Virus record (IMG/VR): IMGVR_UViG_3300034023_001061
DNA from: an uncultured virus (IMG/VR IMGVR_UViG_3300034023_001061)
Lineage: Duplodnaviria; Heunggongvirae; Uroviricota; Caudoviricetes
DNA length: 64,000 nt
Direction: 5' to 3' (one strand)
The position numbers and the translations under genes are program-made. Of this stretch, positions 15,849 to 60,595 are shown in pieces. The first letter of the stretch is position 1. Each line of letters begins with the position of its first letter. The notes under the pieces were generated by a model. That model saw nothing but the letters and a program-made list of their open reading frames with translations, was not told where the DNA came from and did no database searches.

Positions 15849-16361
15849 ATGTCGCGTCGCCGACTGCACCCGCGCAGGAACTCGACCGCGTCACGACGTT
15901 CGGTGCGAAACGGTCGGGCGAAGCCGATCGTTGCGTGGCACGCGACCGATCGCGTTTTCGATCGCTTCGACCCCGACCGTTCGGGACTCGGAACGCACTT
16001 CGGCACCTACCGCGCGGCGGCGGGGCGCAAGCGTCAAATCGGCAAGTTTCGCGGCCCCGCAGGCGAGTGGCGCGTCACGAAGTACACGCTGCGCTTCGCG
16101 TCGGCGTTGCGCACCGACGATATCGGCGGGTGGGACGACGAGCCGCAAGTCGAGTCGATGCTGCTGCGGCACGGGATCATCGCCCCGGCAGACCTTCACG
16201 ACTCACGTCGCCTCTCTGGCGCTGCGTTCTGGTCGTGGGCGAGGCGCAGACTCGCAGACGCGGGCTACGATGCGATCGTGTACGCGAACCGCGTCGAGGA
16301 TAAAGGCCGCGACTCCTACGTGGTGTGGGACAACGGAATCATCGAGACCGTGGAGCGGTGA
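15849..16361 (+). CDS. ADP-ribosyltransferase-fold protein (ART-PolyVal-like) with RRSVRNG leader
   Basis: AWHAT..FDRFD...GTHFG...AGYDAIVYAN..E...SYVVW. Confidence 0.6.
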   Translation: MSRRRLHPRRNSTASRRSVRNGRAKPIVAWHATDRVFDRFDPDRSGLGTHFGTYRAAAGRKRQIGKFRGPAGEWRVTKYTLRFASALRTDDIGGWDDEPQVESMLLRHGIIAPADLHDSRRLSGAAFWSWARRRLADAGYDAIVYANRVEDKGRDSYVVWDNGIIETVER

Positions 16362-16366
16362 AACGT

Positions 16367-16771
16367 ATGGCAACGAAACGCAAGCCGCCCGCGAGGCGAA
16401 GGTCGGTCCGAAACGGAGAAACGTCGATGGGGTTGCCCATCGTAGACCGTGAGGGGTGGGACGACGGGACAATCGTGACGTGGCTCGGTAGCCCGTTCCC
16501 GATCGCGCGGAAACCGATCGTCCCGAGTCGACTGCATCTTCAAGCGAAGCGCAAGCGCGTGACTCTATCCTCGCTCATCGGCACGCAAGACCGAGTGACC
16601 GAGAACGGCGTGAAACGATACATGAGCGACGCGGGCGACGAACTGCCTATGGTGTACAAGTACCGCGGCGAACTGTTCATCGCGGACGGGCACCACAGAC
16701 TGGTTGCTGCGTGGCTCCGTGGCAACAAGACCGCCGTCGTTCGCGTGGTCGAGGTTCCCGATCGCGAGTAG
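16367..16771 (+). CDS. ParB/Srx-like domain protein with RRSVRNG leader
   Basis: LPMVYKYRGELFIADGHHRLVAAWLRG. Confidence 0.7.
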   Translation: MATKRKPPARRRSVRNGETSMGLPIVDREGWDDGTIVTWLGSPFPIARKPIVPSRLHLQAKRKRVTLSSLIGTQDRVTENGVKRYMSDAGDELPMVYKYRGELFIADGHHRLVAAWLRGNKTAVVRVVEVPDRE

Positions 16772-16778
16772 CCATCGC

Positions 16779-16827
16779 GAAAATCGACTCGCCGCCGTAA
16801 AGAATCGCCCTCGCCCCGTCGTACAAG
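16779..16827 (+). promoter_or_regulatory. class B promoter-like motif with no long ORF downstream
   Basis: GAAAATCG...GTAAAG-19 nt-TACAAG matches the repeated motif. Confidence 0.55.
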
Positions 16828-16831
16828 TCTC

Positions 16832-17004
16832 CGAACACAACAGAGGCTTCGGCCACGCATCGCAGCGAAACTCTCGCGGCGCAAGCGAGCCGATGACCGC
16901 GGAGGCTACCATGCAACCGGAGCGGTAACGCCGCTCGACGAACGAAAACAGGCCCACGGCGGGGGCGGCGCGCACGATGCGTCGCTCCCGTCGGCATTTG
17001 TGCC
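16832..17004 (+). ncRNA. candidate structured RNA containing a 5-codon minigene
   Basis: GGC-TTCG-GCC, GAGCGG/CCGCTC and other hairpins; GGAGG-5 nt-ATG CAA CCG GAG CGG TAA. Confidence 0.35.
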
Positions 17005-17005
17005 G

Positions 17006-17042
17006 TTGACAACTCGCCCGCGCCGCGCGTAGCGTCGTGCGT
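17006..17042 (+). promoter_or_regulatory. class A sigma70-like promoter, probably leaderless
   Basis: TTGACA-18 nt-TAGCGT-7 nt-ATG. Confidence 0.7.
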
Positions 17043-17591
17043 ATGGCAACCTCGAAGAAGCCCCGCAAGTCCCGTCCCTCCGCGCTGGCGTGCAAGCGCC
17101 GTGGTCGCGCACTGGCGAAGAAGCGCACCGCGTCGGCGGGCAAGTCGCTCGCAGCGTGCCGTCGCCCCGCGAAGCGCGCCTCCGTCCGCAACGGTTCGCC
17201 GTCGAAGGCGGCGACGCTGCGCAGCCTCGACTCGTTCGCGCGCGCGTACCTCGAAGCGGCGCTCTGGTCGTCGACCGACAACGCGGACGATCGCGGCGGT
17301 GAACCGCTCGACCGCAACTACGGCCCCGAAGACATCGAGTCGAAGACGCTCGCGAAGATGGTCGCCGACTGCAAGAAGTTTCAGAAGCAGAACGCCAGCG
17401 ATATCGGCGGTGAATCGTCGCTCGCCGGTCACGACTTCTGGCTCTCGCGCAACGGTCACGGCAGCGGGTTCTTCGACAACGACGACACGTTCGGCGCCGA
17501 CGAAGCGGAGCGTCTGCAAGAGGCGGCGGAGGCGTTCGGCAACTTCGACCTCTACGTTCACCGCGGTCGCATCTACGGGTCGCGCGGGTGA
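17043..17591 (+). CDS. phage-type protein (AGHDFWLSRNGHG motif) with 51-aa basic leader ending ASVRNG
   Basis: leader nearly identical to that of ORF 45211; acidic globular domain follows. Confidence 0.75.
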   Translation: MATSKKPRKSRPSALACKRRGRALAKKRTASAGKSLAACRRPAKRASVRNGSPSKAATLRSLDSFARAYLEAALWSSTDNADDRGGEPLDRNYGPEDIESKTLAKMVADCKKFQKQNASDIGGESSLAGHDFWLSRNGHGSGFFDNDDTFGADEAERLQEAAEAFGNFDLYVHRGRIYGSRG

Positions 17592-18292
17592 TGCCGCGCG
17601 CCACGAAGAAGCACGCGCCGCCCGCGTACCGTTCGTCCGCCCCCGTGTGCGACTGCGGATCGGGCATCCCCCGCTCGGAGACCGCTGAGATCCCGAGTTC
17701 GGGCGGGCGGCGCGGCTGCGACAAGTGCTACAACCGCAAGTACGCGGCCTACGCCGACACCGACGGCGGCGGTGCGGAGTACAGCGACGATCCATCGTCG
17801 GGCTCGGGCTGGCACTACAGCCGCAACCCGCCGCAGAACTTCACGATCACGTCGGGCGGGCGCCGCATCCGCGTTGCCGGTGGCAACGTGTTCCCGTCGA
17901 AGCGCGACGCCCTCGCGGCGGCGGCGTACCTGCGCGCGACCGACGGCGGCGACTACCGCGTGCGGGCGCTCAAGCCCGGTGATTCCGTCGTCCGCGTCGC
18001 CGTGGCGAACGGCAAGAAATCGACGCGCGCCGGTAAGAAGCGCGGCGCTACGGGCGTACGACGGAGCATGAGCAACGGACGCACGAAGTCGCAGACCGAA
18101 ACCTCGAATCCCTTCGCCGACGCTCACGAGCGCAGGGTGCGGGAGTGGTACGCCGACCAGACGGACAACCGCCTGCGATCGCTCTACACGGGCGCGTGGG
18201 ACGCGAACGACGCCGACGGGGCTCGTTATGCGGTCGCAGAAATGAAGCGGCGCGGCTTCGATACGAGCATGTACCGCTGGCCCGGTCTGTAG
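17591..18292 (+). CDS. basic multi-segment protein with internal SRNP, ANG and RRSMSNG motifs
   Basis: N-terminal CxC/CxxC segment, then segments separated by N-[G/P] motifs. Confidence 0.65.
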   Translation: MPRATKKHAPPAYRSSAPVCDCGSGIPRSETAEIPSSGGRRGCDKCYNRKYAAYADTDGGGAEYSDDPSSGSGWHYSRNPPQNFTITSGGRRIRVAGGNVFPSKRDALAAAAYLRATDGGDYRVRALKPGDSVVRVAVANGKKSTRAGKKRGATGVRRSMSNGRTKSQTETSNPFADAHERRVREWYADQTDNRLRSLYTGAWDANDADGARYAVAEMKRRGFDTSMYRWPGL

Positions 18293-18294
18293 CC

Positions 18295-18843
18295 CTACCG
18301 CCGCTCCGACACCCGATCCGAAACCACACGCCAGTCGACCAGCCGGTCGAAGAACGCCTCGCACCACGCGCGCCTGTTCGGCCCGCGATCGAGGTAGTAG
18401 GCGTGCTCCCACACGTCGAGGGGGAGCACCGCGCGGCCCCACTGAGCCCGCGTGCCGTGGTTGTGGGCCAACTCGACGAACAGCCGCCCACGCTCCGCGG
18501 AGAGCAGCGCCCATCCGCTGCCTTGCGACGCGAGCGCCGTGCGGATCATCGCCTCGCGCAGCGCGGCGTACCCACCGAACTCGCGGTCGACCATGCGGGC
18601 GAGCGGCCCGACGGGAGGCCCGCCGCCGAACGGCGAGAGCGACGGCCACAACAGCGTGTGCAGCACGTTCCCGCCGAGGTTGAACTCGAACGACTCCGAC
18701 GTGAGCCCGCCACGATTCAGCGCGGCGACGTAGTTCGCGTGCAAAACGTCGTGGTGGAACGTCATCGTGTCGCGCGAGACGAACGGTTGCAGCGCGTCGT
18801 AGGCGTAGGGCAGCGGCGGGAGCGTGTACATCGCGGCGTGCAT
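18295..18843 (-). CDS. sod: Fe/Mn superoxide dismutase
   Basis: YTLPPLPYAYDALQP, FHHDVLH, GSGW and DVWEHAYY signature. Confidence 0.92.
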   Translation of the reverse strand: MHAAMYTLPPLPYAYDALQPFVSRDTMTFHHDVLHANYVAALNRGGLTSESFEFNLGGNVLHTLLWPSLSPFGGGPPVGPLARMVDREFGGYAALREAMIRTALASQGSGWALLSAERGRLFVELAHNHGTRAQWGRAVLPLDVWEHAYYLDRGPNRRAWCEAFFDRLVDWRVVSDRVSERR

Positions 18844-18866
18844 CCTACCGCGTCGGCGCGAGCGAC

Positions 18867-19625
18867 TCAAGGAGTCGCGGCGAGCCGTCGTACGGCACGG
18901 ACGGCCCATGCTTCGCCGCAGAACGCGGGCGCGAGGTACTCCCACGGGAGCCACGCGGACCCACCGTCGCACCACGTAGAATTCCACGAATTAACGATCC
19001 GCACGCAGCGCATCGGAATATCGTAGCCAACGACCAGCATCGCGTGCCCGCCGACGGTGTAGCCCCACGGCTCCTCGATCACGTCGCCCGTCGCCTGCTC
19101 GAACGATTGCGGGATCGAAATCCCGACGACGACGGGGTGCCCCGACGCGATCTCCCACAAAATTGCATCCACCTCGATCGCGAGCGCCTCCGCGTTCACC
19201 ACGCGCGGCGCATCGGCGGGGAGGGGCGGGGGCTCCTCCATCCATTGCGGCCCCCACACGGGCTTGTGAGGCCACTGCGCTTCGGGCAACCACCCCGCGC
19301 GCAGCGCCTTCACGCCGTCAGCGATAAGGCACCCGTGGTCGAGCCCCGTGGTGCCCTCCATCGCCCGCGCGCGGTAGTACACGTCCTTGCGCGACGGCAC
19401 ATCATCTTCGTAGCGCGCGTTCGCGAGCACGATGCGGACGGACTGCGCGAGCGCCTGCGCGACGCACGACCCGACGGCGCCCTGATCGAAAACGTCGTGC
19501 GGCACGCCCTTGAGGAGCACGGCGGGCGGGAGCGTGTCGCGGGCGTTGCTAGGAGCGTGCGAGACGCCAGCGTACGTGCGACCGACGGATGCGGGGGAGA
19601 TCCAGCCGAAGTTTCGGATGTTCAC
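18867..19625 (-). CDS. papain-like cysteine protease (peptidase C1A)
   Basis: DQGAVGSCVAQA, GGHAMLVVGYD and VNSW...W..GG. Confidence 0.9.
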   Translation of the reverse strand: MNIRNFGWISPASVGRTYAGVSHAPSNARDTLPPAVLLKGVPHDVFDQGAVGSCVAQALAQSVRIVLANARYEDDVPSRKDVYYRARAMEGTTGLDHGCLIADGVKALRAGWLPEAQWPHKPVWGPQWMEEPPPLPADAPRVVNAEALAIEVDAILWEIASGHPVVVGISIPQSFEQATGDVIEEPWGYTVGGHAMLVVGYDIPMRCVRIVNSWNSTWCDGGSAWLPWEYLAPAFCGEAWAVRAVRRLAATP

Positions 19626-19634
19626 GCGAAGAGT

Positions 19635-24192: not shown

Positions 24193-24247
24193 AACGGCTA
24201 CCTTTCGTGTTGCGTGCGGTTCTGGCGTAGTGTACGGTCCGGTTGCC

Positions 24248-25534: not shown

Positions 25535-25541
25535 CGTTTAC
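24248..25541 (+). mobile_element. tnpB-only IS-like element (left end not defined)
   Basis: 3' hairpin CCCCGTCG-CTCA-CGACGGGG then TAGCGTTTAC, typical of the right-end/omegaRNA region; no tnpA nearby. Confidence 0.65.
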
Positions 25542-25810
25542 GTTCTCAAGGAGTCGCTCTCAACGTCACCCACTCGCGCGAACTGCGCGCCGCCGCAAAC
25601 TCCGTCAAGGGCCTCGCCCGCCACCGCATTCACCTCGATCGCCGCAGCGTCGGCGACGAGACGCGGTATCACCGCCGTCGCAATCGCGGGCCGCGCTCGC
25701 GGCCACAGCACCCACGCAACGCCCGCTACTGCGAGCACCGCCCCCGAAGCAACGGCAACGCCCACCGCCACGTCGCGCGCCGCACCGTTCTTCTGCGACA
25801 CCCGCCTCAA
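25538..25810 (-). CDS. small membrane protein with RRVSQKNG N-terminus
   Basis: one TM helix; TTGA overlap with the upstream gene. Confidence 0.5.
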   Translation of the reverse strand: MRRVSQKNGAARDVAVGVAVASGAVLAVAGVAWVLWPRARPAIATAVIPRLVADAAAIEVNAVAGEALDGVCGGAQFARVGDVESDSLRT

Positions 25811-35732: not shown

Positions 35733-36590
35733 ATGGCACACGCACGTCGCTCGCTCCGCAATCACCACGGCAAGCCCCACGAGCACGCCCCCGGCGACCC
35801 GCTCGGCGTGTACCTCCCGCCGCTGGGGAAGTGGAAGAAGGACGATCACGGGATGCGCAGTTGGCGACACCCTGAACTGCCGCTGCGATTCACCATCACC
35901 GGCAGCAGTGGCGGCGTTGCCGTGAGGTACAACGACGATTACTCGTACGACGAGACGTGGTTCGATGGCCCCAACCCGCGAGACGTTCTCGCCGCGATGA
36001 AGGTCTGGTACTCGCAGCAGACAATGGCGTCGCTGCGCCGCGCCGAACGCAACCCCGACTGGTCCGCGATGCGCGCGAAGGCGTCGCACTACGGTTCGCG
36101 CGCCGCCACGGGTGCCCGCGAGGCGTACGAGTGGACGGCGCCCCGTGCGAAGCGTGCCGCAGCGGCGACGTGGGAGGGCGCGAAGGCGACGGGTCGCGCC
36201 GTCAAGCGCGGAGCGAAGCGCGCGGCCCCCGTGCTCGCCCGTGGCGCCCGCAGCGCGGCGGAGAGCATGGAACGCTGGTCGCAGACGAACGGGCGCTGCG
36301 CGATGCGGAACGGGGCCACGCAAGGGCGCATGATCCTCGTCGGGAACAAGCGCCTCGGTGGGCATATCCTCCGCTACTCCGGTCACTACGGCGACGCCGC
36401 GAGTCGCACGGGACTGGCGTTCTACAATCGAGAGGCGATCCCGTTGAAGGACGCGCGCGACGCACTTCAGGATCTCAAGTGGATGGCAGGGTTCGACACG
36501 ATTCACGGCAGGGCGTGGCAACGCGGTGAGAAGTCAGTTCTCGCGACCACGATCAAGGGACTCGAAGCGGCGATCGCTCGCGCGAAGTAG
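35733..36590 (+). CDS. basic multi-segment protein with RRSLRN, RRAERNP and AMRNG motifs
   Basis: three compositionally different segments separated by RN motifs. Confidence 0.7.
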   Translation: MAHARRSLRNHHGKPHEHAPGDPLGVYLPPLGKWKKDDHGMRSWRHPELPLRFTITGSSGGVAVRYNDDYSYDETWFDGPNPRDVLAAMKVWYSQQTMASLRRAERNPDWSAMRAKASHYGSRAATGAREAYEWTAPRAKRAAAATWEGAKATGRAVKRGAKRAAPVLARGARSAAESMERWSQTNGRCAMRNGATQGRMILVGNKRLGGHILRYSGHYGDAASRTGLAFYNREAIPLKDARDALQDLKWMAGFDTIHGRAWQRGEKSVLATTIKGLEAAIARAK

Positions 36591-36989
36591 CGCCTCGCCT
36601 ACTCGACGTTCCCGCCCGACACGATCGACTCGCAACAGGATCAATCATGGCAACCAAGACGAAGCCTCGCGTTCGCAAGCCCGCATCGAAGCCGAGTTAC
36701 CGCAAGAACGTCAAGGGCACGAAGTCGCTCGGTGGGCAACTCGCGCTCATCCAAGCGATGTCGTGCTCCGGTGACGATCTCACGAAGGTCGCCCACAGCC
36801 TCGTGCACGGGCGCAGCATCGATCTCGCAACCGCGAAGATCAGCCTGCTCGACCTTCAACGGATTCTGGATCGTTCCCGCGGCGAAGAGTTCGTGGCGCA
36901 GATCCTCAAGGCCATGAAGCAACTCAAGGCGATCATCGCGAAGGCGAAGTAGCGCCTCGCCTACTCGACGTTCGCGACCGACACGATCG
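36582..36989 (+). repeat. 46-bp direct repeat (36582-36627 and 36944-36989), 2 mismatches
   Basis: GCGAAGTAGCGCCTCGCCTACTCGACGTTC[C/G]CG[C/A]CCGACACGATCG occurs twice. Confidence 0.9.
36647..36952 (+). CDS. small protein with basic MATK... leader
   Basis: AGGA RBS; MATKTKPRVRKPASKPSYRKN. Confidence 0.7.
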   Translation: MATKTKPRVRKPASKPSYRKNVKGTKSLGGQLALIQAMSCSGDDLTKVAHSLVHGRSIDLATAKISLLDLQRILDRSRGEEFVAQILKAMKQLKAIIAKAK

Positions 36990-43989: not shown

Positions 43990-44108
43990 CGCGGGCAATA
44001 GTGCGCTTTCGCTTCTCAATTGTCAACGCCGGTTCCCGTGTGCCGCGATTGACACGACCTACAATACTAATTGTCGCGCGTGTAAGGTTCATGTGCTACG
44101 GTTCGCCC

Positions 44109-45155: not shown

Positions 45156-45210
45156 CGCGCGCCCGCGCTCGACGGTTGCGTTCTGCGGGCGTTCGTGTAG
45201 CGTCACACGT

Positions 45211-45726
45211 ATGGCAACCAAGAAGAAGTCTACGAGGAAGCGTCCGTCGAAGTTGGCGTGCAAGCGCCGCGCGAAGGCGCTCCCGAAGAAGCGCACGGCG
45301 TCGGCAGGCAAGTCGCTCGCAGCGTGCCGTCGCCCTGCGAAGCGCGCCTCCGTCCGCAACGGCTATTACAGCCCGTCCGAAGTCGCCGAACTCAACGAGT
45401 ATTTCAGCGCCGACAGCGTGCGGCGTCGCGAGGCCGCGCGCGCAGCATCGGTCCCCGACTTGTCGGGGTGGCAAGCGTACCGCGGCGGGTCGTACGGACT
45501 GAGAGTGTCCGAGGACCGCTCCTACGAGATCGAACCCGTATCGCGCGTCGCGCGCAAGAACGATCACGCGGGCTACGTTCTTCGCGTGAACCACGGAGTC
45601 TACCAAGACTTCGTAGGCCGCAACGGGAAGTACGCGGACCCTTCGCGCGGTGCGAAGGATTACCTCTTCCGCACACCCGAGCAGGCCGTTCTCGCCGCAC
45701 GCTCGCACCGCCGCGACAACCTCTGA
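45211..45726 (+). CDS. hypothetical protein with 51-aa basic leader ending ASVRNG
   Basis: TTGCGT-16-TAGCGT-7-ATG; leader shared with ORF 17043. Confidence 0.75.
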   Translation: MATKKKSTRKRPSKLACKRRAKALPKKRTASAGKSLAACRRPAKRASVRNGYYSPSEVAELNEYFSADSVRRREAARAASVPDLSGWQAYRGGSYGLRVSEDRSYEIEPVSRVARKNDHAGYVLRVNHGVYQDFVGRNGKYADPSRGAKDYLFRTPEQAVLAARSHRRDNL

Positions 45727-49356: not shown

Positions 49357-50148
49357 TCAGCGGCCGAACCACTTCCCCGGCGTTCGTGGTTTCGGATTGC
49401 TCCACAACTTGAACGCTTCGATGTATTCCGGCCCGATCGTTCCGCGCGCACGGTCGCCGCCTACCTCGAAGATCGCCGACGGCGGCACGCCGTACCTCAT
49501 GCGGTACTGGTGCGCACCAGCCGAGATATCGCGGTCGTCGAGGTCGGGCGATAGATCGTCCCACGGAACGATCACGCGGAGCACGATAGGGTCGCCCCCG
49601 TGCTCGCGCGCGGCCTTGAGCGCGTAGTCCCACGCACCGCCCGGTCCGCCGCTCGGTGCGCGCGTGAGGTACACCCAACCGCGCGTCGTGCTCGACCACG
49701 TACGTTTCGGTGCATCGGTCTGGAGACCGTTGCGTTTGATATCGCGGAGGAGCGCGGTCGACGTTCCGTGGTACATCCACACGAGAGCGCCCGTGAACTT
49801 CCCACGGTGCCCGCCCTTCGGCTTCGGCGGAACCTCGAACGCTTGCGACTCCCATCGCTCGGCTTCGGCGGCGGCAAGGTCGTACCCCGAACGCTTCGAC
49901 GACTCGGCCTCGCGCTCCGCGATCCACTCTTCGACCTCGGTTCGGTCGGAGGCAAGAAGGAACTCGACGAAGCGATTCCACAGGATGTAAGGCGTCGTTC
50001 GCGCGTGCGCGATGGCGCGGTCGTAGAGCGGATCGCCCCACAAGCGAGCGGGATAAGGCACCTTCTTCGCGCGGTCGATCCACTTCGGCATCCTGCCGAC
50101 TGCCGTGTTTCGTATAGACCTTCGGAGTACGTTCTTCGCTCTAGCCAT
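49357..50148 (-). CDS. ADP-ribosyltransferase-fold protein (Tpt1/KptA C-lobe-like) with RRSIRN leader
   Basis: MYHGTS..L..I...GL...VYLT...IVLRV...VPPSAI; TTGCCT-17-TAGCGT promoter. Confidence 0.65.
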   Translation of the reverse strand: MARAKNVLRRSIRNTAVGRMPKWIDRAKKVPYPARLWGDPLYDRAIAHARTTPYILWNRFVEFLLASDRTEVEEWIAEREAESSKRSGYDLAAAEAERWESQAFEVPPKPKGGHRGKFTGALVWMYHGTSTALLRDIKRNGLQTDAPKRTWSSTTRGWVYLTRAPSGGPGGAWDYALKAAREHGGDPIVLRVIVPWDDLSPDLDDRDISAGAHQYRMRYGVPPSAIFEVGGDRARGTIGPEYIEAFKLWSNPKPRTPGKWFGR

Positions 50149-50225: not shown

Positions 50226-50969
50226 ATGCGCCGCTCCCACCGCAACAGCCTCGCCGACGCCCTCCCCCTCTTCTCGAACGCCGACGACGTGGCGTACGCC
50301 GCCGACCGCTACGGCGGACTCGCCGACGAACTGCCCGACGCCGCCGACCGGGCGCTCCGTGCGGGCGCGCGGGCGCCTCTGCGCTACCTCGGAGCGGGAG
50401 CGAACGGCATCGTGTTCTGCGACGCCCGCAAGCGAGGCTACAAGGTCGCCCGCTCGCGGGACACGTTCGCGTCGCTCGCCGACGAAGCGGAGTGGCTCTC
50501 CGTCGCCAGCGCCGACCCGACGCTGCGCAGTCACGTCGCGAAGTTCCGCGCGTGGCACCCGACGCTCGGAGTGATCGAGCGCGAGTGCGTGCAAGCGCAG
50601 GATCGCGAGAAGGTGCGAACGTGGGGTCTCGACGATAAACGGTGGAATCTGCACCGCATGATCGGGCGCGTGATGCGCCAGTACGGGTGGTCGGCACCGG
50701 AGTACAAGGACGATTCCTACATCGTCACGCGCGATCGTGGCCTTGTGCTCGTCGATGCGGGCTACGTGCTCCGTCTCGGGAGTCGCCTCGCGCGTGAGGT
50801 TGCGGCGACACACCGCGACCCGTCGGCGTCGGCCTTCGATCGCGACTTCTCGCGCGGCACGCTGCGTTCGGAGTACGGCAGGACGATCCCGCGGATGGCT
50901 GGCGAGCGGCTGCACGATCGCCTCGCGCCACTCCCGAACGGGAACCGTGCGCGGCGTCGCTCGCGCTAG
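50226..50969 (+). CDS. protein kinase-like fold protein with RRSHRN leader and NG-basic tail
   Basis: YLGAGANGIVF glycine loop, YKVA Lys, helix-C Glu and LVLVDAG; catalytic loop atypical (EYKDDS). Confidence 0.55.
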   Translation: MRRSHRNSLADALPLFSNADDVAYAADRYGGLADELPDAADRALRAGARAPLRYLGAGANGIVFCDARKRGYKVARSRDTFASLADEAEWLSVASADPTLRSHVAKFRAWHPTLGVIERECVQAQDREKVRTWGLDDKRWNLHRMIGRVMRQYGWSAPEYKDDSYIVTRDRGLVLVDAGYVLRLGSRLAREVAATHRDPSASAFDRDFSRGTLRSEYGRTIPRMAGERLHDRLAPLPNGNRARRRSR

Positions 50970-54631: not shown

Positions 54632-55372
54632 ATGCAACGTACGTGGCGTCAAGTCGGGGACCGCTGGTGGTTCTCGCTCCCGTGGTCGATCGGACTCGAA
54701 CTCCGACGTGTCGGTTCGCGGACGGTCGGTTCGTTCGTACTGTTCCGTGACGGGCGCGAGGTGTCCCGCCACAACCTGCTCCCGCAAGCGCAGGGCGCCG
54801 TCGCGGAACTCGAAGCCCCGGCGACGCAGCCCGACGACCTCCGCGGGTGGCGCCCGACGCGCGAGAGCGTCCGCAACCCCGGTCGCACCCTCCCCGCGAT
54901 CGTCGACCGCTGCGTGGCGCACGTCGCCCCGCGCCTCAAGGATCGCGGCCCCCGTGGCGCGCTCTCGGGCGCCGTCGCGATCTGCACCGCGCAGGCGCAG
55001 AAGCGTGGGGCACTCAAGAAGGGCTCTCGCAGCCTCACGGCGCGCGGCAAGCGCGAGGAGCGCAGCGCAACCCGTCGCAAGGGCTACAAGGCCGACACGC
55101 GGGCGGTGAAGGCCCTCGCGCGCGAGGCACGGGAGGCTCCCCCGCTCGACCCGCGCATCGTCGCAATCGCGACCGTGCTCCGCGAACGTCAACCGGCGAA
55201 CCTCGCCGACGTGGCGTTCGCGATCAAGATGAAGCGCGCCGACGCTCGCAAGTTCGTCCGCGCTGCGGCGACCCGCGCTGCGGTGGCGAAGTTCATGGGG
55301 GCGAAGAAGGTCACCTACACCGCGAGCAAGAAGAGCATCGGGCACGACTTGCTCGCCGTGGTGTCGAAGTGA
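54632..55372 (+). CDS. basic multi-domain protein with internal RESVRNP motif
   Basis: GTGACA-18-TACAAT-6-ATG; C-terminal domain paralogous to ORF 56229. Confidence 0.7.
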   Translation: MQRTWRQVGDRWWFSLPWSIGLELRRVGSRTVGSFVLFRDGREVSRHNLLPQAQGAVAELEAPATQPDDLRGWRPTRESVRNPGRTLPAIVDRCVAHVAPRLKDRGPRGALSGAVAICTAQAQKRGALKKGSRSLTARGKREERSATRRKGYKADTRAVKALAREAREAPPLDPRIVAIATVLRERQPANLADVAFAIKMKRADARKFVRAAATRAAVAKFMGAKKVTYTASKKSIGHDLLAVVSK

Positions 55373-56229
55373 GTGCGCGACTGGAGCGGTACAACGTTCG
55401 GCGGTCGCGAAGGAATCCCGACGCTGCCGTCGCGGATGCAGAGTGGGTAAACGCACGCAAGGGCACCCTCTGTGACCCATTCTTGGCGAGCGAAGCCATC
55501 GCGATGCTCGACTCCTCGTATCGTGGCATCGGAGGCAATGCGACGTTCAGATCCGCCTCCGACCTCTGCGACGACGAGTACGACGCGGTGGAACTGCTTC
55601 TGTCCGGCGACCGACTGAGGGCCGTCCGTATTTCCAAGACGACGCCGTTCGGCGTGAAGTGCGTCGCAATCGCGACCGATGGTTCCGACCTCGCCCGCGC
55701 CAGCATGAAGCAGAAAACGATGGACTGGTATCGCCAGCCCGGACAATACGGCGAGGTTTCGGGGGCGATTGCTGCACTGGCGCTCAAGGCCAAGTCCCCG
55801 GTCGTCACCGACCATGCCACCGTTGAGAGAGTGCTTGGCAAGCGAGTCCAGTGGCACGGAGCGCACCCGGACGGCGAGTTCCCCGGAACGTTCGGGTGGT
55901 ACACCCGTTCCATCGGTGGGCACCCTCACGTCAAGATCCTCGTCGGCACACCGCGCGTGAGTCGCGACAATGGTCGCCGATCAGCGCCAAACGGCACCGC
56001 ATGGTCGCTCGACGTTCGTGTCGTCGGGGCGCGTCAAACCGAACCGCAGCCGATTCTCGGAGTCCGCGGGGAAACCGCTGCGAAGCGCATGGCAAGCACT
56101 ATCCTGCGAGAAGTCTACCGCGACGGTGGGCGTGAATTCCGCGAGGCGTACCTCTCCCGTGTTCGCCCCGACGGCTTCGTGATCGTGCAATGGCGCCGCG
56201 TCAACGGGCGCTGGATTCTCAACCTCTGA
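55369..56229 (+). CDS. two-domain protein with RRSRRNP leader and internal RRSAPNG motif
   Basis: GTGA overlap; motif positions. Confidence 0.65.
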   Translation: MSARLERYNVRRSRRNPDAAVADAEWVNARKGTLCDPFLASEAIAMLDSSYRGIGGNATFRSASDLCDDEYDAVELLLSGDRLRAVRISKTTPFGVKCVAIATDGSDLARASMKQKTMDWYRQPGQYGEVSGAIAALALKAKSPVVTDHATVERVLGKRVQWHGAHPDGEFPGTFGWYTRSIGGHPHVKILVGTPRVSRDNGRRSAPNGTAWSLDVRVVGARQTEPQPILGVRGETAAKRMASTILREVYRDGGREFREAYLSRVRPDGFVIVQWRRVNGRWILNL

Positions 56230-56531: not shown

Positions 56532-57448
56532 AGCGCCGCAGCACCCGCAACCCGACGATGCTCCCCACCGGCAAGAGCGAGTGGGCGCAGCACTACGTCA
56601 TCGACGCGAGCGACCCGCCGACGATACGCGAGGTGATCGACGCCTACGCGAACGGCAACGCGCAGGCGCGGCAACCGTTCAACGACAACGGCGACCTGTT
56701 GCCGATGGCGCACTACACGCTCGGCGATGTGATGCGCGACGTTCGACCGGGCAACTTCTTGCGCTACGGGAGCGCGACGCCGAAGTTCCGCGCGCTCAAG
56801 GGGCAACTGCGCCGGTACGGCCAGCGCGTGCCGTTGATGATCGAGGTTGACCGCAAGGGCGTCGCGCAAGTCGGCGAGGGTAACCACCGCGTCGCGGCGT
56901 TGCTCGCGATGTACGGCCCGTCGCACCGCGTCGGCGTGAGGTTCGTGTTCAACCGCTACCCGATCACGACGCACGCGGGCTTGACGTGGGCGACCGCCGA
57001 TCGTGACCCCGTAGCAAGACGTTCGGAGCGCAACGGCGCTCCGTCCCCATACACCGACCCGTCGCTGCGCGATGCGATCAAGCGACGCATCATGGCGGGC
57101 AGCAAGGGCGGGAAACCGGGCCAGTGGTCCGCGCGCAAGGCGCAACTCGTCGCCGCGGAGTACGCCGCTGCGGGCGGCGGCTACCGCTCCGGTGCACGCA
57201 CCGCGGCGCAACGTTCGTTGCGCAAGTGGACGGGCGAGAAGTGGACGACGAGTGATGGTAAGCCCGCGATCCGCAAGGGCGGCACCGTGCGCTACCTCCC
57301 GCAGTCCGCGTGGGCCACGCTCACCCCGGCGCAGCGTGCGGCGACGAACCGTAAGAAGCGCGCGGGCTCGCAGGCGGGCCAGCAGTTCGTGAAGAATACC
57401 CGCGCTGCGGCGAGGGCGGGCAAGGCCGCGCGCTCGCGGCGGCGGTAG
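56528..57448 (+). CDS. ParB-like domain fused to a DUF5872-like basic domain, each preceded by an RRSxRN[P/G] motif
   Basis: MKRRSTRNP; VGEGNHRVAAL; RRSERNG; KGGKPGQWSARKAQL...GGGY...SLRKWT.EKW. Confidence 0.75.
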   Translation: MKRRSTRNPTMLPTGKSEWAQHYVIDASDPPTIREVIDAYANGNAQARQPFNDNGDLLPMAHYTLGDVMRDVRPGNFLRYGSATPKFRALKGQLRRYGQRVPLMIEVDRKGVAQVGEGNHRVAALLAMYGPSHRVGVRFVFNRYPITTHAGLTWATADRDPVARRSERNGAPSPYTDPSLRDAIKRRIMAGSKGGKPGQWSARKAQLVAAEYAAAGGGYRSGARTAAQRSLRKWTGEKWTTSDGKPAIRKGGTVRYLPQSAWATLTPAQRAATNRKKRAGSQAGQQFVKNTRAAARAGKAARSRRR

Positions 57449-57449
57449 G

Positions 57450-59402
57450 CTACGGCACGTAGCCGTTCCGCGCGGCGGTGTGGCACCACGCGCGGGCGGA
57501 CTCGACCGCGGATTCGAGGGATGCGCGTGCTTCGATCGAGCCTACCAGCCTGTACGACGGGTGCTCCGGCCCTCCGTCTGACAGCGCATCCATCGCTCGA
57601 CCGGCGACGATCGTGTAGTGCTCCGTCTGCCACTGCTTGAGATCGTCGCGCAGGTTCTCCGACCACGGCAGCGCGAGCGTGACGCGGTAACGGTCCTTCA
57701 CCACTTCTCCGCCGCGTGCGCTGCTCGTCCCCGGTAGCCACTTCGCGCGCTCGACTCGCTCGCGAACCTCCCACGCGATGCCGTCGGTTACGCCGGTTGC
57801 GAGGCACTCTCCGAACACGCGGTCGTTCTGCAAGGCGCGGAGCTCTTCGGGCTTCATCGCGCCTCCATCGCGGCGTTGTACGCCGCCAGCGCGTGTGGCT
57901 TGACGTGATCCCACACCACGTCGACCGACTCGGCGAACCGCTCGACGGCGCGCAGTTCCTCCGCGACGTACGGCGCCGCAGCGAACTGCGGGAGGTTCGC
58001 CGGAACGTTCGTGTTCGCGCCGATGTTCGCCGCGTGCTCGACGACGCGCTGTTCGTTTCGGGTGAGGTTGCAGTGGTCGGTGAGACAACCGAGAACGCAG
58101 GCGAGGGTGTGGCTCACCGCGACCTCAGTTCGCGCTCGCGTCGCTCGATCGCGCGGAGCAAGCGGTAGTGCGCCACCGTGTTGAGGTGCGACTCCGCGAG
58201 CACCATGCGGAGGCCAGCGCCCTCCGACACCCGCTGCATCGCGGCGATGTTCTCTTCGATCGTTGCCGTGACTCGCGCGTCGCGGGCTTCTTTTTCGTGC
58301 GTCACTTGTCTCTCCGCTTGTTCTTGGCGATGGCTCTCAACTCGCGCGCGACTTCTCTCAAGCGACTCGCAAGGGCGTCGGCTTCGGGCGCGGTGAGGAT
58401 TGTCTCGTGATGAGTAGAGTACATGCTGGACGCTTGCCCGCAGGCAACGGAGAGCCTTGCGATCGGCATACCCTTGCTCGATTGATCGTGCTCCTCGCGG
58501 GAAACCTCGACGGTGATCGTTGGGCCATCGTCGGTGATTATTTCGAGGGGTTGCACTTCGCCACCGCCCACGTTGGGATGTTCGCGCGCTCGATGGCGCG
58601 CAGGTTGTTTGCGCTGGCGTAGGCGAACATCGCCTCGATGCCAGCCTCGGTGATCTTGTACACGATCCTGCACTTAACCCTTATCCACGCGTACCCGTCG
58701 ACAAGCCCGCGCTTCTTGAGAGCGACGTACGTTCTGCGCGGCACTAAAAACGAATGGCCGTCGCCGCTAGAGATCGTTTTTAGCGCGACGTACTGCGCGC
58801 CAGTGATGCTTGCCATGCGCGGTGTGACGTGGCCCGTGAGGCGCGTATTCAGCGCGTGCGGCGCGCTACTTCGAGGCTTGCGATGCGATGTACCTAAACA
58901 CCTCGCTGAGATTCTTGAAACGATGCTGCACACCCTCACTATCGGTGATGATGCGACCGCGCTTAGGACCACGCGTGATCTTCGTGCCGCAGTGGTAGAA
59001 GTCGCCGATCGCTCCCTTCGCGCGAGGCAACTCGGCGACTTCGATGCACCCTCTCAGCGCCCGCACTTCGTAGCGCGAAGGCTCCGCTGCGATTTTTTCG
59101 ATCATGCAGTCGGGGAGGTGAATATCTGCATAATCCACGAGGTTGCGTTTCATGGTCACTCTCTTCTACGGTGATCGTCCGACGGACTAGTCCCGCACGC
59201 CCTGCGAGCGGAGGTACGCCCGCTCGGCGTAGAACTCACGCTCCGCGACCTCGGGGTCGCCGCCCTCGCGCGCTGCGAGCGCGGCACGCTCGAAGGCACG
59301 CTCCGACGGAGCGACGGTCGCGTCGGCGGGCGGGCACACACGCACGCCGCGGTCGCGGCGAAACAGGCAGACCTTGCACTGGCAATCGGTGGGGTGATTC
59401 AT
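57450..59402 (-). CDS. cluster of small hypothetical genes (57450-57857, 57854-58117, 58114-58305, 58538-58816, 58866-59153, 59187-59402 and one more near 58302-58541)
   Basis: overlapping starts/stops; class B motifs. Confidence 0.5.
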
Positions 59403-59455
59403 AGTGCTTCTCTTACGGCGTGGGCGACGCGAACCTTACGGTGCCGCGTCGATTT

Positions 59456-59791
59456 TCAGCGGCGGCGGGCGGCGCGCTCGGCTTCGCGCACGGCGTCCTG
59501 CTTCGCGGCGGATTCTTGCCACTCGACAAGCGCCTCGAACGCTTCGCGCTTCGTCGGGATCGGGTCAGAGAACGAACTACTATCGGCAGCGTCTTCGATC
59601 ATCCAGTTGCCGCGCGCGTACGTCTCGGCGTGCTCGTTGGCGCGACGGTAGAGCGAGAACCGAAGGTCGGGCGACACGTAGAAGCCAGCGTGAACCTCGA
59701 TTACGGGAACGCCGAGAACGGTCTTGAGGGTGCCGTAGACTTCGTGGCCCTTCGGGGCGCCGGGGGAGACATTGACGCGCTGGTTCTTCAT
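59456..59791 (-). CDS. hypothetical protein, tandem paralog A
   Basis: GTLKTVLG..VIE...YVSPDL.F...SDPIPTKREA; own class B motif. Confidence 0.7.
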   Translation of the reverse strand: MKNQRVNVSPGAPKGHEVYGTLKTVLGVPVIEVHAGFYVSPDLRFSLYRRANEHAETYARGNWMIEDAADSSSFSDPIPTKREAFEALVEWQESAAKQDAVREAERAARRR

Positions 59792-59847
59792 AGTGCCACC
59801 TTGTACGTCGCTGGCGACGGCGACCTTACGGCGCCCCGCTGATTTTC

Positions 59848-60189
59848 TCAGCGACGGAACGCGGCGATGCGCGCGGCGCGCTCCTCGGCGTCCTGCTTCG
59901 CCCACCGCACGAGTTCGGTGAGCGCCTCGCGCTTCGTCGCGATCGGGTCGGAGTGATCCTTGCCCATCGTCTCCCGCACGATCCACCCGCTCCAGTCGAT
60001 ACCGTCGCGTCCCTTATAGAAGCGCACGGCCTCGAAATGGAGGTCTTCGGACACGTACGACCCGCCCTTCGTTTCGATCACGCGCAGCCCGTACAGGGTG
60101 CGGAGCGTGCCGGTCGCCGGGGTAACGCCGGGGGCGAGGTACTGAAGGTCTTCGGGGCGGGTGAGGCAGACGGTGGCGTTGCGCTTCAT
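59848..60189 (-). CDS. hypothetical protein, tandem paralog B
   Basis: GTLRTLYG..VIE...YVSEDL.F...SDPIATKREA; own class B motif. Confidence 0.7.
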   Translation of the reverse strand: MKRNATVCLTRPEDLQYLAPGVTPATGTLRTLYGLRVIETKGGSYVSEDLHFEAVRFYKGRDGIDWSGWIVRETMGKDHSDPIATKREALTELVRWAKQDAEERAARIAAFRR

Positions 60190-60245
60190 GGTGCCCCTTG
60201 TACGCCCGCTGTCGAGGCGACCTTACGGCACCCTGCCGATTTTCT
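60190..60245 (-). promoter_or_regulatory. class B promoter-like motif (type example)
   Basis: AGAAAATCGGC-N8-GTAAGG-18 nt-TACAAG-7 nt-ATG. Confidence 0.7.
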
Positions 60246-60595
60246 CAGCGGCTCCTCGGGAGCACAACCGGCATCTTCCGCTCGGCGACCTTCACCATCG
60301 ACGCGGGCACGAGCATCGTTCGGAACACGCGCTTCGCGTTGTCGAGCGCCTCACCCTCCGCGCGCGAGAGCACCGTGCTGTTCCTCTCGTGCCTACGCTG
60401 GAACTCGTCGATCGCCTTCGCGAGCATCACCGCCTCGTCGCGAACGTTCTCGTAATGGTTGTAGTCTTCGGGCGAGAGACGGAACTCGCGCGCTTCGAGC
60501 CAGCGGTAGAACGTTCGCGGCGCGATGAACTCGCCGGGTGCGGGTTCGATCGAGTTGCGGACGGAGCGGCGGACGGTACGCTTCTTGGATTGCAT
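60245..60595 (-). CDS. hypothetical protein with RRSVRNS leader
   Basis: MQSKKRTVRRSVRNS; TTGACG-17-TAGCGT-10-ATG. Confidence 0.7.
   Translation of the reverse strand: MQSKKRTVRRSVRNSIEPAPGEFIAPRTFYRWLEAREFRLSPEDYNHYENVRDEAVMLAKAIDEFQRRHERNSTVLSRAEGEALDNAKRVFRTMLVPASMVKVAERKMPVVLPRSR

What the first reader, a model, noticed from the sequence alone, without database searches (positions are those of the whole stretch)
15849..60595. A shared basic R-R-S-x-R-N-[G/P] tag on about a dozen unrelated proteins: candidate virion cargo-loading and maturation system
Seen: the motif ends an Arg/Lys-rich N-terminal leader in ORFs 15849 (RRSVRNG), 16367 (RRSVRNG), 17043 and 45211 (KRASVRNG), 35733 (RRSLRNH), 50148- (RRSIRNT), 50226 (RRSHRNS), 55369 (RRSRRNP), 56528 (RRSTRNP) and 60595- (RRSVRNS). 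Weaker versions occur in 36647 (SYRKN) and 25810- (RRVSQKNG). Three ORFs carry a mirror-image form, N-[P/G] then a basic tail (23095 NPPRRLRRR; 50226 NGNRARRRSR; 50148- NPKPR). The attached domains are unrelated: ART-fold, ParB-like, kinase-like and unknown. The genes are scattered on both strands, and most sit behind class A promoters. Established: T4 internal proteins use a short capsid-targeting leader that the prohead protease removes. Inference: a DNA-binding basic tag that loads diverse effectors into the particle and is cleaved near the Asn. I do not know of a description of this tag.
Basis: partly seen in the sequence, partly recalled or inferred. Interest (0 to 1): 0.85.

Follow-up and report, generated by a model that had tools for sequence, protein, structure and literature searches.

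The report
Shared arginine-Asn tag on phage proteins
About one protein in ten of an uncultured large bacterial virus carries the same short arginine-rich peptide joined to it through an asparagine, which looks like a portable address or release label of a kind not found in the papers searched, though what it does has not been shown.

Summary
All ten strong sites, both weak ones and the three C-terminal forms are at the stated coordinates. In the window RRSxRN occurs 9 times against 0.03 in shuffles. I joined the window to overlapping contigs of the same virus (165.7 kb, 280 genes). There, 25 strong sites lie in the coding frame against 0-2 in each other frame and 0.35 in local shuffles. 2.06 Mb of other phage DNA gave 2. 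Codons vary freely, so selection is on the peptide. The tag is an add-on: homologous domains elsewhere start just after it, orthologues keep it, and 11 proteins carry it reversed at the C-terminus. Function is inferred only. The best guess is an address-and-release label, a basic hook plus an Asn-Gly/Pro/Ser junction, that gathers effector enzymes with the viral DNA. No cleavage, DNA binding or virion location was shown, and no head protease or HK97-type capsid gene was found. The main rival is a DNA-tethering hook with no packaging.

The parts
15849..16361 (+). Tagged ORF (170 aa), ART-like domain; tag core RRSVRNG at 15894-15914, at the end of a 21-residue leader
   Evidence: sequence; blastp to the ART-PolyVal ORF 23059; weak Pfam ART-PolyVal match from residue 25, three residues after the tag
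16367..16771 (+). Tagged ORF (134 aa), ParB-like/VapB-like domain; core RRSVRNG at 16397-16417
   Evidence: (PF23719 2e-7, PF08857 2e-4)
17043..17591 (+). Tagged ORF (182 aa) with a 50-residue basic leader ending KRASVRNG (core 17175-17195), then a widespread phage domain (phrog_1915)
   Evidence: 108 of 149 homologue alignments begin at query residue 49 or later; only the 86% orthologue shares the tag. GTAGCGT box 7 nt before the ATG
45211..45726 (+). Tagged ORF (171 aa) with the same promoter and leader cassette as 17043 (77% identity over residues 1-61) but a different C-terminal domain; core 45343-45363
35733..36590 (+). Tagged ORF (285 aa) with three motif copies: RRSLRNH 35745-35765, RRAERNP 36036-36056, RCAMRNG 36294-36314; the copies flank cassettes that vary among homologues
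   Evidence: RRS[LVQ]RN at the N-terminus in 12 of 14 aligned sequences; N107-P-D-W and N186-G187 invariant
49357..50148 (-). Tagged ORF (263 aa): N-terminal RRSIRNT (50104-50124) and C-terminal NPKPRTPGKWFGR (49360-49398)
   Evidence: GTAGCGT box before the ATG
50226..50969 (+). Tagged kinase-like ORF (247 aa): MRRSHRNS (50229-50249) and C-terminal NGNRARRRSR (50937-50966)
   Evidence: nearest named Atlas clusters are OspG kinase, T7 kinase, YrbL and APH at 0.94 (a lead only)
55369..56229 (+). Tagged ORF (286 aa), unknown domain; core RRSRRNP 55399-55419; GTG start at the upstream gene's stop codon
56528..57448 (+). Tagged two-domain ORF (306 aa): RRSTRNP 56534-56554 before a ParB-like part, and RRSERNG 57017-57037 four residues before a DUF5872-like domain
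   Evidence: 69 of 80 related loci begin matching at residues 171-188; in 12 of 27 loci inspected the domain starts a stand-alone ORF
60245..60595 (-). Tagged ORF (116 aa), unknown domain; core RRSVRNS 60551-60571
   Evidence: GTAGCGT box before the ATG
54761..55372 (+). Weaker copy RESVRNP at 54860-54880 (residue 34 or 77, depending on the start chosen)
17588..18292 (+). Weak internal copy RRSMSNG at 18059-18079 within a basic linker
36647..36952 (+). Weak variant: basic leader MATKTKPRVRKPASKPSYRKN-VKG
   Evidence: below the PSSM threshold
25538..25810 (-). Weak variant RRVSQKNG directly before a hydrophobic (membrane-like) segment
23059..23817 (+). ART-PolyVal ORF with the reversed C-terminal form NPPRRLRRR (23788-23814)
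   Evidence: (PF18760 3e-20)
18867..19625 (-). Papain-like cysteine protease, a candidate processing enzyme (no link to the tag shown)
   Evidence: E 4e-30 to chain 3ois_A, with Cys, His and Asn aligned in conserved GSC, GGHA and NSW blocks
12941..15304 (+). 787-aa protein with a calpain-like cysteine protease core, a second candidate processing enzyme (no link to the tag shown)
   Evidence: calpain-9 E 9e-5, aligned GNC and HAY...RNPWG motifs

Best explanation
The feature is a portable peptide label specific to one lineage of large uncultured bacterial viruses. It has two elements. The first is a short arginine-rich hook with core R-R-(S/A)-x-R, often preceded by more Lys/Arg. The second is an Asn-(Gly/Pro/Ser) junction that joins the hook to the folded domain. 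At N-termini the order is hook, then junction, then domain. At C-termini it is domain, then junction, then hook. Bare copies of the core also sit between domains. I think it most likely works as an address-and-release label. The hook holds otherwise unrelated enzymes and some membrane or structural proteins on a polyanion, most likely the viral DNA, so that they are gathered with the genome for encapsidation and delivery into the next host. The Asn junction is where the hook is later detached, either by one of the virus's own cysteine proteases or by the intrinsic lability of Asn-Gly and Asn-Pro bonds. Shown here: the motif, its excess over chance, its terminal position, selection on the peptide, its modular add-on nature and its conservation in relatives. 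Inferred only: DNA binding, packaging and cleavage.
For: The excess over chance and the positional bias come. Lineage specificity: 25 N-terminal hits in 165.7 kb against 2 in 926 kb and 0 in 1.13 Mb of other phage loci. Peptide-level selection: six Arg codons and two Ser codon families. Logo of the 25 strong sites: R 23, R 18, S 22/A 3, hydrophobic, R 24, N 25, then G 10/P 7/S 5. Add-on nature: the DUF5872-like domain starts 4 residues after the internal copy, and 69 of 80 related loci begin matching there. For the 17043 domain, 108 of 149 homologue alignments start at or after the tag, and 33 homologues have the domain at their own N-terminus. Paralogue 115333+ is tagged and 47246- is not, with homology starting right after the tag. 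Conservation: orthologues of 162816- read RRSVRN, RRSVRN, RSASRN, RLYSPN and RRFTPN. The orthologue of 161695- in relative L168 keeps RNPPEGGY. The 35733 family keeps all three junction Asn residues. Cargo type: ART-PolyVal, ParB-like, DUF5872-like, kinase-like and helicase are domains that PMC5512222 (passages read) predicts to be packaged and injected. Six proteins carry a strong or weak N-terminal tag and a basic C-terminal tail (50226, 49357-, 94012-, 92109-, 106428-, 99667- has the C-terminal form only); adenovirus pVI is likewise cut at both ends, releasing a basic DNA-sliding peptide (PMC4246237 passages). None of the 25 residues after Asn is Leu, Phe, Tyr, Trp, Arg or Lys; from general knowledge of the bacterial N-end rule, that suits a new stable N-terminus. 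Two clan-CA cysteine proteases are encoded in the window.
Against: No data show cleavage, DNA binding or presence in particles. No prohead-protease, portal, terminase or HK97-type capsid family was detected in 165.7 kb, although the genome is incomplete. A -10-like box abutting the start codon precedes 8 of 21 tagged genes against 11 of 259 untagged genes. These promoters could be early ones, whereas the capsid-candidate genes have Shine-Dalgarno starts inside operons. The tag also occurs on proteins with a hydrophobic segment right after it (140472-, 25538-, 161695-; weaker in 147189- and 139088-) and internally in sigma factor 134224+, which are not obvious cargo. The reversed order at C-termini does not fit one linear protease site. 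In a tailed phage, DNA-bound proteins could not pass the portal with the DNA. In the 35733 family the motif is embedded in a longer conserved region and is not a free tag.
Confidence: 0.4

Rival explanations
1. A DNA- or nucleoid-tethering hook with no packaging and no cleavage. The basic peptide keeps enzymes made in the infected cell, probably early, on host or viral DNA or another polyanion. The Asn-Gly/Pro/Ser acts only as a flexible turn between the hook and the domain.
For: Stand-alone sigma-70-like promoters abut the start codon of many tagged genes (8 of 21 against 11 of 259; 18 of 280 genes have the full -35/-10 pattern, 8 of them strongly tagged). The tag is on a helicase, on ParB-like proteins and inside a sigma factor. 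The hook works in either order and at either end, as expected for a charge-based contact. Short basic peptides bind and slide on DNA largely regardless of sequence (PMC4797294, abstract and section headings seen). No head protease was found.
Against: Generic DNA binding does not explain an invariant Asn (25 of 25), Ser/Ala at -3 (25 of 25) and Gly/Pro/Ser after it (22 of 25). It also does not explain bare cores without a basic leader at domain junctions (57017 RRSERNG, 36036 RRAERNP), or the retention of Asn across orthologues while the arginines drift.
Confidence: 0.3
2. A shared site for regulatory modification. The Ser would be phosphorylated by the phage's kinase-like protein, or an Arg ADP-ribosylated by its ART enzymes, switching a set of proteins on or off together.
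For: R-R-S-x-R looks like a site for a basophilic kinase (general knowledge, not tested). The virus encodes a kinase-like protein that is itself tagged, PP2C and dual-specificity phosphatases, two ART-like proteins, an ADP-ribosylglycohydrolase and a Nudix hydrolase.
Against: Ala replaces Ser in 3 of 25 strong sites and in several weaker ones (RRALRN, RRAVRN, RRAERN). Asn, not Ser, is the most conserved residue. The terminal position and the coincidence with domain boundaries are not explained.
Confidence: 0.1
3. Purely a protease processing site that removes pro-peptides and separates fused domains, with no addressing role.
For: Copies lie at domain junctions. Two clan-CA cysteine proteases are encoded. 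The residue after Asn is small.
Against: The basic leaders are long and conserved (up to 50 residues, shared by 17043 and 45211 and similar in 107965-), which is more than a cleavage site needs. The reversed C-terminal arrangement does not fit one recognition sequence.
Confidence: 0.1
4. A secretion or membrane-insertion signal of the twin-arginine type.
For: Paired arginines near the N-terminus. A few tagged proteins have a hydrophobic segment right after the tag (140472-, 25538-; 147189- and 139088- with a weaker form) and 161695- about 15 residues after it.
Against: Most strong N-terminal tags are followed directly by polar, globular sequence. There is no F-L-K after the arginines. C-terminal and internal copies cannot be signal peptides.
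Confidence: 0.03
5. No function: a hitch-hiking remnant of a duplicated promoter-plus-leader cassette.
For: 17043 and 45211 share promoter and leader at about 82% nucleotide identity, and 107965- has a very similar promoter and leader.
Against: Apart from that trio the codons differ: mean third-position identity in the core is 0.48, and Ser is encoded as both TCN and AGC. Yet the residues are kept, also in orthologues at 55-60% identity.
Confidence: 0.03

Closest known systems
Phage T4 capsid targeting sequence on internal proteins IPI-III and Alt, removed by prohead protease gp21; related processing in giant phage SPN3US (papers seen only as search listing and abstracts; T4 Alt passage in PMC5512222)
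   Same: A short N-terminal leader shared by unrelated proteins, including an ADP-ribosyltransferase; the proposed roles are loading into the particle and removal of the leader.
   Different: The T4 leader is not basic and is cut after Glu (recalled, not tested). Here the tag is arginine-rich and ends in Asn-Gly/Pro/Ser, also occurs reversed at C-termini, and no gp21-type protease or HK97-type capsid gene was detected in 165.7 kb.
Adenovirus maturation: DNA-bound precursor proteins cut by the AVP protease, and the basic pVIc 'molecular sled' (PMC4246237 passages; PMC4797294 abstract and headings; PMC4740752 abstract)
   Same: Several unrelated precursors bind DNA without sequence preference. 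pVI is trimmed at both its N- and C-termini, and the released C-terminal piece is a short basic peptide with a KRRR core. DNA serves as the track that brings enzyme and substrates together. The layout here formally matches: basic pieces at either end, fenced by a small conserved junction.
   Different: The adenovirus junction is (M/I/L)XGX-G style (IVGL-G for pVIc) and the enzyme is AVP. Here the junction is Asn-Gly/Pro/Ser and the only proteases seen are papain-like and calpain-like. The host is a bacterium. Nothing has been shown experimentally.
Polyvalent proteins of phages and conjugative elements (Iyer et al. 2017, PMC5512222, passages read)
   Same: The same repertoire of effector domains (ART, ParB-like DNase, kinase, helicase), which that paper predicts to travel with the DNA into the next host and in some cases to be processed by peptidases.
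   Different: There the domains are fused into one giant polypeptide. Here they are mostly separate small genes, each carrying the same tag, and only a few are two-domain fusions joined by the tag core.
Short DNA-binding hooks such as the AT-hook (RGRP core) and SPKK motifs (recalled from memory, not tested)
   Same: Small basic motifs with a turn-forming residue, found at either end of many unrelated proteins.
   Different: Different sequence; those motifs are eukaryotic or cellular; the invariant Asn junction has no counterpart.
Basic tags fenced by Gly-Gly in giant viruses, and Glu-bounded arginine-rich junction peptides in a 228-kb gut phage, as noted earlier in this scan (unchecked AI notes)
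   Same: About one protein in six to ten carries a Lys/Arg-rich leader, tail or spacer joined through a small invariant junction, and those notes read it as a clip-off DNA-binding address label.
   Different: The junction residue differs (Gly-Gly or Glu there, Asn-Gly/Pro/Ser here), as do the virus type and host; those notes also lack experimental support.

Membership tests
T4-type capsid targeting sequence / prohead-protease propeptide | Short shared leader at the N-terminus of unrelated proteins | tested here: met
   21 of 25 strong sites start within the first 50 residues; leader length median 16, range 7-50
T4-type capsid targeting sequence / prohead-protease propeptide | Cleavage motif ending in Glu (L/I-x-E in T4, A/S/G-x-E in phiKZ-like phages; recalled) | tested here: not met
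   The junction residue is Asn in 25 of 25 sites and the residue before it is Arg in 24 of 25
T4-type capsid targeting sequence / prohead-protease propeptide | A prohead protease (S77, S78 or assemblin type) and an HK97-fold capsid gene in the genome | tested here: inconclusive
   No such Pfam or PHROG hit in 165.7 kb, but the genome is incomplete and most genes have no family
T4-type capsid targeting sequence / prohead-protease propeptide | Tagged proteins present in the particle with the leader removed | not testable with these tools
   Needs virion proteomics or N-terminomics
Adenovirus-type DNA-scaffolded maturation (basic precursors plus sled peptide) | Basic segments at the N- or C-terminus of several unrelated precursors | tested here: met
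   Net charge of the first 25 residues is +5.6 in tagged against +0.4 in untagged proteins; 11 C-terminal N[GP]-plus-basic tails against 1.04 expected
Adenovirus-type DNA-scaffolded maturation (basic precursors plus sled peptide) | Gly-containing consensus site cut by the AVP protease | tested here: not met
   The junction is Asn-Gly/Pro/Ser; the proteases found are papain-like and calpain-like
Adenovirus-type DNA-scaffolded maturation (basic precursors plus sled peptide) | DNA-dependent processing | not testable with these tools
   Needs biochemistry
Twin-arginine (Tat) signal peptide | S/T-R-R-x-F-L-K followed by a hydrophobic stretch and a signal-peptidase site (recalled) | tested here: not met
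   No F-L-K after the arginines; most strong N-terminal tags are followed by polar sequence; C-terminal and internal copies exist
Polyvalent proteins (Iyer et al. 2017) | Effector domain repertoire (ART, ParB-like, kinase, helicase) | tested here: met
   PF18760 3e-20 in ORF 23059, PF08857/PF23719 in 16367, UvrD helicase in composite gene 101299-, kinase-like 50226; the repertoire is named in PMC5512222
Polyvalent proteins (Iyer et al. 2017) | 2 to 15 such domains fused in one polypeptide | tested here: not met
   Tagged proteins are 116-783 aa and mostly single-domain; only a few are two- or three-module fusions (56528, 35733, 107965-)

The most novel reading that the evidence does not exclude
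This could be a giant non-tailed bacterial virus (more than 166 kb) with a jelly-roll capsid and an internal membrane. Like adenovirus and the giant viruses of eukaryotes, it would mature on its own DNA. About thirty proteins would ride on the genome by an arginine 'sled' and be released at an Asn-Gly/Pro/Ser fence by a clan-CA cysteine protease or by spontaneous Asn chemistry. That would extend DNA-scaffolded 'one-dimensional' virion maturation, and a protein-sorting code, to viruses of bacteria.
Probability: 0.1. Interest if true: 0.9.

Novelty: new variant of a known kind. Interest (0 to 1): 0.68.

Why it matters
Shared sorting or processing signals are how viruses load enzymes into particles and deliver them to the next host. 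Only a few such codes are known in phages: the T4 capsid targeting sequence, the phiKZ/SPN3US cleavage motifs and the P1 Dar proteins. Here a different code, basic and fenced by asparagine, marks about a tenth of the proteome of a deep-branching, almost wholly unannotated virus lineage seen in lake metagenomes. If it is an address label, it names the likely injected arsenal of this lineage (ART, nucleases, kinase, helicase and many unknowns). It would also offer a short portable tag for loading foreign proteins. If it is a DNA hook, it is a compact sequence-defined tether. Either way the motif gives a direct handle, through peptides, point mutants and two candidate proteases, on proteins that otherwise have no annotation.

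Tried and rejected
- DNA-level element: rejected, because the codons vary.
- Whole genome: none is held. I extended the window through overlapping contigs of the same virus. The ends do not overlap, and no contig was found for the window's left side.
- megablast of 23 kb against the phage collection: no match.
- Related-locus scans in viral contigs: ORF 25810- and ORF 35733 found nothing. The capsid-candidate protein next door and the capsid-candidate alignment found only the virus itself. The genome-contig scan found none.
- The 143 other phage loci fetched served as controls and do not carry the tag.
- AlphaFold2 of the tagged protein 162816-, which I hoped might be a protease, failed (mean pLDDT 38) and was not used.
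- The capsid-candidate model (pLDDT 62) gave only weak fold matches: best VIA Z 5.8, Foldseek PDB no E <= 0.001, BFVD one hit at 5.8e-4 with TM 0.17. I therefore do not claim a capsid fold.
- Earlier notes of this scan: nothing for this genome or for ORF 35733.
- Papers: five searches found no description of the motif (and 97 for RRSVRN, RRSxRN, RRSLRN, RSVRNG). Subscription journals are not covered.
- Complex prediction was not used: enzyme-substrate or peptide pairs are poor cases for it, and I claim no specific binding pair.
- Phage-nucleus import signal: considered and set aside. The sigma factors' N-termini, the integrase and the HNH enzymes are untagged, and no signs of a nucleus-forming phage were seen.
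- Acidic-cargo idea: rejected. The mature parts of tagged proteins have mean net charge +0.023 per residue.

Full report
WHAT THE WINDOW IS. The window is 68% G+C and holds about 120 short genes, most without any family (Pfam, PHROGs). The few named genes are phage-like: RNA ligase, HNH endonuclease, TnpB transposase, tyrosine integrase, a virion structural PHROG, DHFR, SOD, PTH2, a GT2 glycosyltransferase, an ART-PolyVal ADP-ribosyltransferase, a ParB-like protein and two cysteine proteases. No genome is held for it and megablast against the phage collection found nothing. One tagged gene led to a viral contig identical to window 43349-64000. The helicase on that contig led to a second contig of the same virus. 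Joining them through exact overlaps gave 165,753 bases and 280 called genes. The ends do not overlap, so the genome is larger still. The added 102 kb brought three sigma factors, a UvrD-type helicase, PP2C, Nudix, an ADP-ribosylglycohydrolase, fibre-like proteins and again mostly orphans. It brought no recognisable terminase, portal, HK97-type capsid or prohead protease.

In the window's gene set RRS.RN occurs 9 times against 0.033 in 300 within-protein shuffles, with 8 of the 9 in the first 60 residues. In the composite, [RK]R[SA].RN occurs 18 times (15 near the N-terminus) against 0.44 (0.17) when residues are shuffled only within 30-residue blocks, which keeps the arginine-rich leaders intact; 0 of 200 shuffles reach the observed count. 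A position matrix built from the sites finds 25, of which 21 start within the first 50 residues, against 0.35. The five other reading frames of the same genes give 2, 2, 0, 2 and 0 matrix hits and 5, 3, 0, 1 and 1 regex hits, so arginine-rich off-frames of G+C-rich DNA do not explain the signal. The same matrix, run on all ORF N-termini of 80 unrelated phage loci (926 kb) and 63 more (1.13 Mb), found 2 and 0 hits, against 25 in this virus. The matrix counts are partly circular; the regex, frame and foreign-phage controls are not.

THE CONSERVATION IS IN THE PEPTIDE. Across the 25 strong sites, Arg at -5 is written with six codons, and Ser at -3 with TCG, TCC, TCT and AGC. Mean third-position identity in the core is 0.48. 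Only 17043, 45211 and the composite gene 107965- share promoter and leader at the DNA level. The logo is R (23 of 25), R (18), S (22) or A (3), a mostly hydrophobic residue, R (24), N (25), then G (10), P (7) or S (5).

THE TAG IS AN ADD-ON MODULE. The tagged proteins are unrelated by blastp, except that 17043 and 45211 share only the leader and 15849 resembles the ART of 23059. In ORF 56528 an internal RRSERNG lies four residues before a DUF5872-like domain. 69 of 80 related loci begin matching at residues 171-188, and in 12 of 27 loci inspected that domain starts a stand-alone ORF of about 130 residues. The domain of ORF 17043 has 6,254 representatives at E <= 0.001. Among the best 149, 108 alignments begin at query residue 49 or later (the tag ends at 51), 33 homologues have the domain at their own N-terminus, and only the 86% orthologue carries the tag, with one further protein starting MPKRRSVRA. 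Composite gene 115333+ is tagged and its paralogue 47246- in the window is not; their homology begins right after the tag.

THE TAG IS KEPT IN RELATIVES. A metagenome contig (L168) whose capsid-candidate is 55% identical is syntenic with the composite. Its orthologue of 161695- keeps RNPPEGGY, and its orthologue of 162816- reads RRFTPN where my virus reads RRSVRN. Five full-length orthologues of 162816- read RRSVRN, RRSVRN, RSASRN, RLYSPN and RRFTPN, so the Asn and the basic leader persist while other positions drift. In the 35733 family (14 sequences, 45-76% identity), 12 have RRS[LVQ]RN at the N-terminus. N107-P-D-W and N186-G are invariant, and the segments between these junctions are swapped for unrelated cassettes.

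THE REVERSED FORM. Eleven proteins end in N-[G/P] followed by a basic tail, against 1.04 in local shuffles (0 of 500). Three of them read NG-RR[S/A]x[R/K], which is the same two elements in the opposite order. Several proteins carry a basic piece at both ends (50226, 49357-, 94012-, 92109-, 106428-). This suggests two separable elements, a basic hook and an Asn-Gly/Pro junction, rather than one linear recognition sequence.

WHAT CARRIES THE TAG. The proteins that can be named are ART-like (15849), ParB-like (16367, 56528), DUF5872-like (56528), kinase-like (50226; Atlas lead at 0.94 to OspG, T7 kinase, YrbL and APH) and a UvrD-type helicase (composite 101299-). Also tagged are a zinc-ribbon-like protein, two proteins next to the capsid candidates (161695-, 162816-), and proteins whose tag is followed by a hydrophobic segment (140472-, 25538-, weaker in 147189- and 139088-). 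A weaker internal copy sits in sigma factor 134224+. ART, ParB-like DNase, kinase and helicase are the stock domains of 'polyvalent proteins', which Iyer et al. predict are packaged and injected; T4 Alt, an ART, is packaged and injected (PMC5512222, passages read).

EXPRESSION. A -10-like box 5-9 nt before the start codon occurs at 8 of 21 tagged genes against 11 of 259 untagged genes (Fisher 1e-5). The exact GTAGCGT box occurs at 5 of 21 against 2 of 259. The full TTGNNN-N16-19-TANNNT-N4-11-start pattern occurs at 18 of 280 genes, 8 of them strongly tagged. These genes look like leaderless, self-contained units, which also anchors their start codons. The capsid-candidate genes instead have Shine-Dalgarno starts inside operons. 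I cannot tell early from late, and this does not support co-expression with structural genes.

CANDIDATE ENZYMES AND PARTICLE TYPE. ORF 18870- is a clear papain-like cysteine protease (E 4e-30 to a solved one). ORF 12941 has a calpain-like core with aligned Cys, His and Asn motifs. Neither is linked to the tag by any result. The most strongly codon-biased gene of the composite (160691-) has homologues at 40-84% identity that start at its Met13, so it is untagged. Its model (pLDDT 62) is a beta-sandwich with only weak matches, many of them jelly-roll capsid proteins (best Z 5.8). It has a paralogue in the composite and three copies in L168. This is a lead that the particle may not be of the tailed HK97 type, and no more than that.

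HOW IT MOST LIKELY WORKS. I put 0.9 on this being a functional, portable peptide signal. For its role I favour an address-and-release label (0.4). The hook would hold diverse enzymes on the viral DNA or another polyanion so that they are gathered with the genome, and the Asn junction would be where the hook comes off. The closest worked-out parallel is adenovirus. There, several precursors bind DNA, pVI is cut at both ends, and the basic C-terminal peptide slides on DNA (PMC4246237 passages; PMC4797294 abstract and headings). The main rival (0.3) is a tether to DNA with no packaging and no cutting, which fits the promoters, the helicase and sigma factor, and the reversibility of the hook. It does not explain the invariant Asn, the Ser/Ala and the small residue after Asn. 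Other readings get 0.1 or less: a modification site, weakened by Ser-to-Ala replacements; processing only; a Tat-like signal, which lacks the hydrophobic stretch in most cases; and a hitch-hiking cassette, contradicted by synonymous variation.

NOVELTY. Five searches of the held papers found no description; subscription journals are not covered. Earlier notes of this scan describe formally similar tags in giant viruses (Gly-Gly fence) and in a gut phage (Glu fence). These are unchecked leads that I did not test. I file this as a new variant of a known kind of system, portable targeting or processing tags on viral proteins. It is not a member of the T4 or adenovirus families, whose defining cleavage motifs are not met.

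Noticed in passing
window 9259-9621, 10351-10620, 12941-15304, 15289-15846 (all +); also composite gene 80803-81045(-), outside the window: A second shared N-terminal motif, (N)..[LM]L.[TF]Y[GA].P..[VI]P, begins five otherwise different proteins, including the calpain-like protease. Two of them (9259, 10351) have the same promoter-abuts-start arrangement.
   Followed up: partly
window 17029, 35720, 45197, 50164(-), 54566(-), 60612(-), 22199, 28413: A sigma-70-like promoter class (TTGNNN, 16-19 nt, GTAGCGT or a related TANNNT) ends 4-11 nt before the start codon, implying leaderless mRNAs. 18 of 280 genes of the composite have it.
   Followed up: partly
L102:4116-5060 (+) and its paralogue, composite gene 151607-152491(-); L168:6290-7114, 7300-8025, 10001-10894: This is the most codon-biased gene of the virus. 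It is a beta-sandwich or jelly-roll-like protein with two to three paralogues per genome and no family. Weak fold matches include single-jelly-roll capsid proteins of membrane-containing viruses (Z <= 5.8). No HK97 capsid, portal or terminase was seen in 165.7 kb.
   Followed up: partly
window 35733-36590: This family is polymorphic. Conserved basic alanine-rich scaffolding segments and junction motifs (RNHH, ERNPDW, TNG) are kept, while the domains between and after them are exchanged among homologues; one homologue has the ERNPDW module twice.
   Followed up: partly
window 17026-17194 and 45194-45362; composite gene 107965-108540(-): A promoter-plus-leader cassette of about 170 nt is duplicated at about 82% identity in front of different C-terminal domains. 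This is a likely route by which the tag spreads to new genes.
   Followed up: partly
window 3239-3712, 15849-16361, 23059-23817, 50226-50969; loci L086:9041-9736(-), L086:9751-10272(-), L086:15453-15899(-): The virus encodes a full set for reversible protein modification: two ART-like proteins, an ADP-ribosylglycohydrolase, a Nudix hydrolase, a kinase-like protein, PP2C and a dual-specificity phosphatase.
   Followed up: no
window 23893-25534 and 44091-45155: A TnpB (IS605 OrfB/Cas12f-like) gene lies next to an HTH gene, and a tyrosine integrase lies elsewhere. Two RRXRR-HNH endonuclease genes at 82% identity lie in the composite and coincide with contig ends.
   Followed up: no
L084:12247-14379(-), L103:12745-13530(-), L103:1227-1892(-): Three sigma-70-family factors, one of 711 residues, are encoded by the same virus.
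   Followed up: no
window 18298-18843(-), 30457-31101(-), 38113-38589(-): Auxiliary genes: Fe/Mn superoxide dismutase, a PTH2-type peptidyl-tRNA hydrolase domain and dihydrofolate reductase. No tRNA genes are in the window.
   Followed up: no
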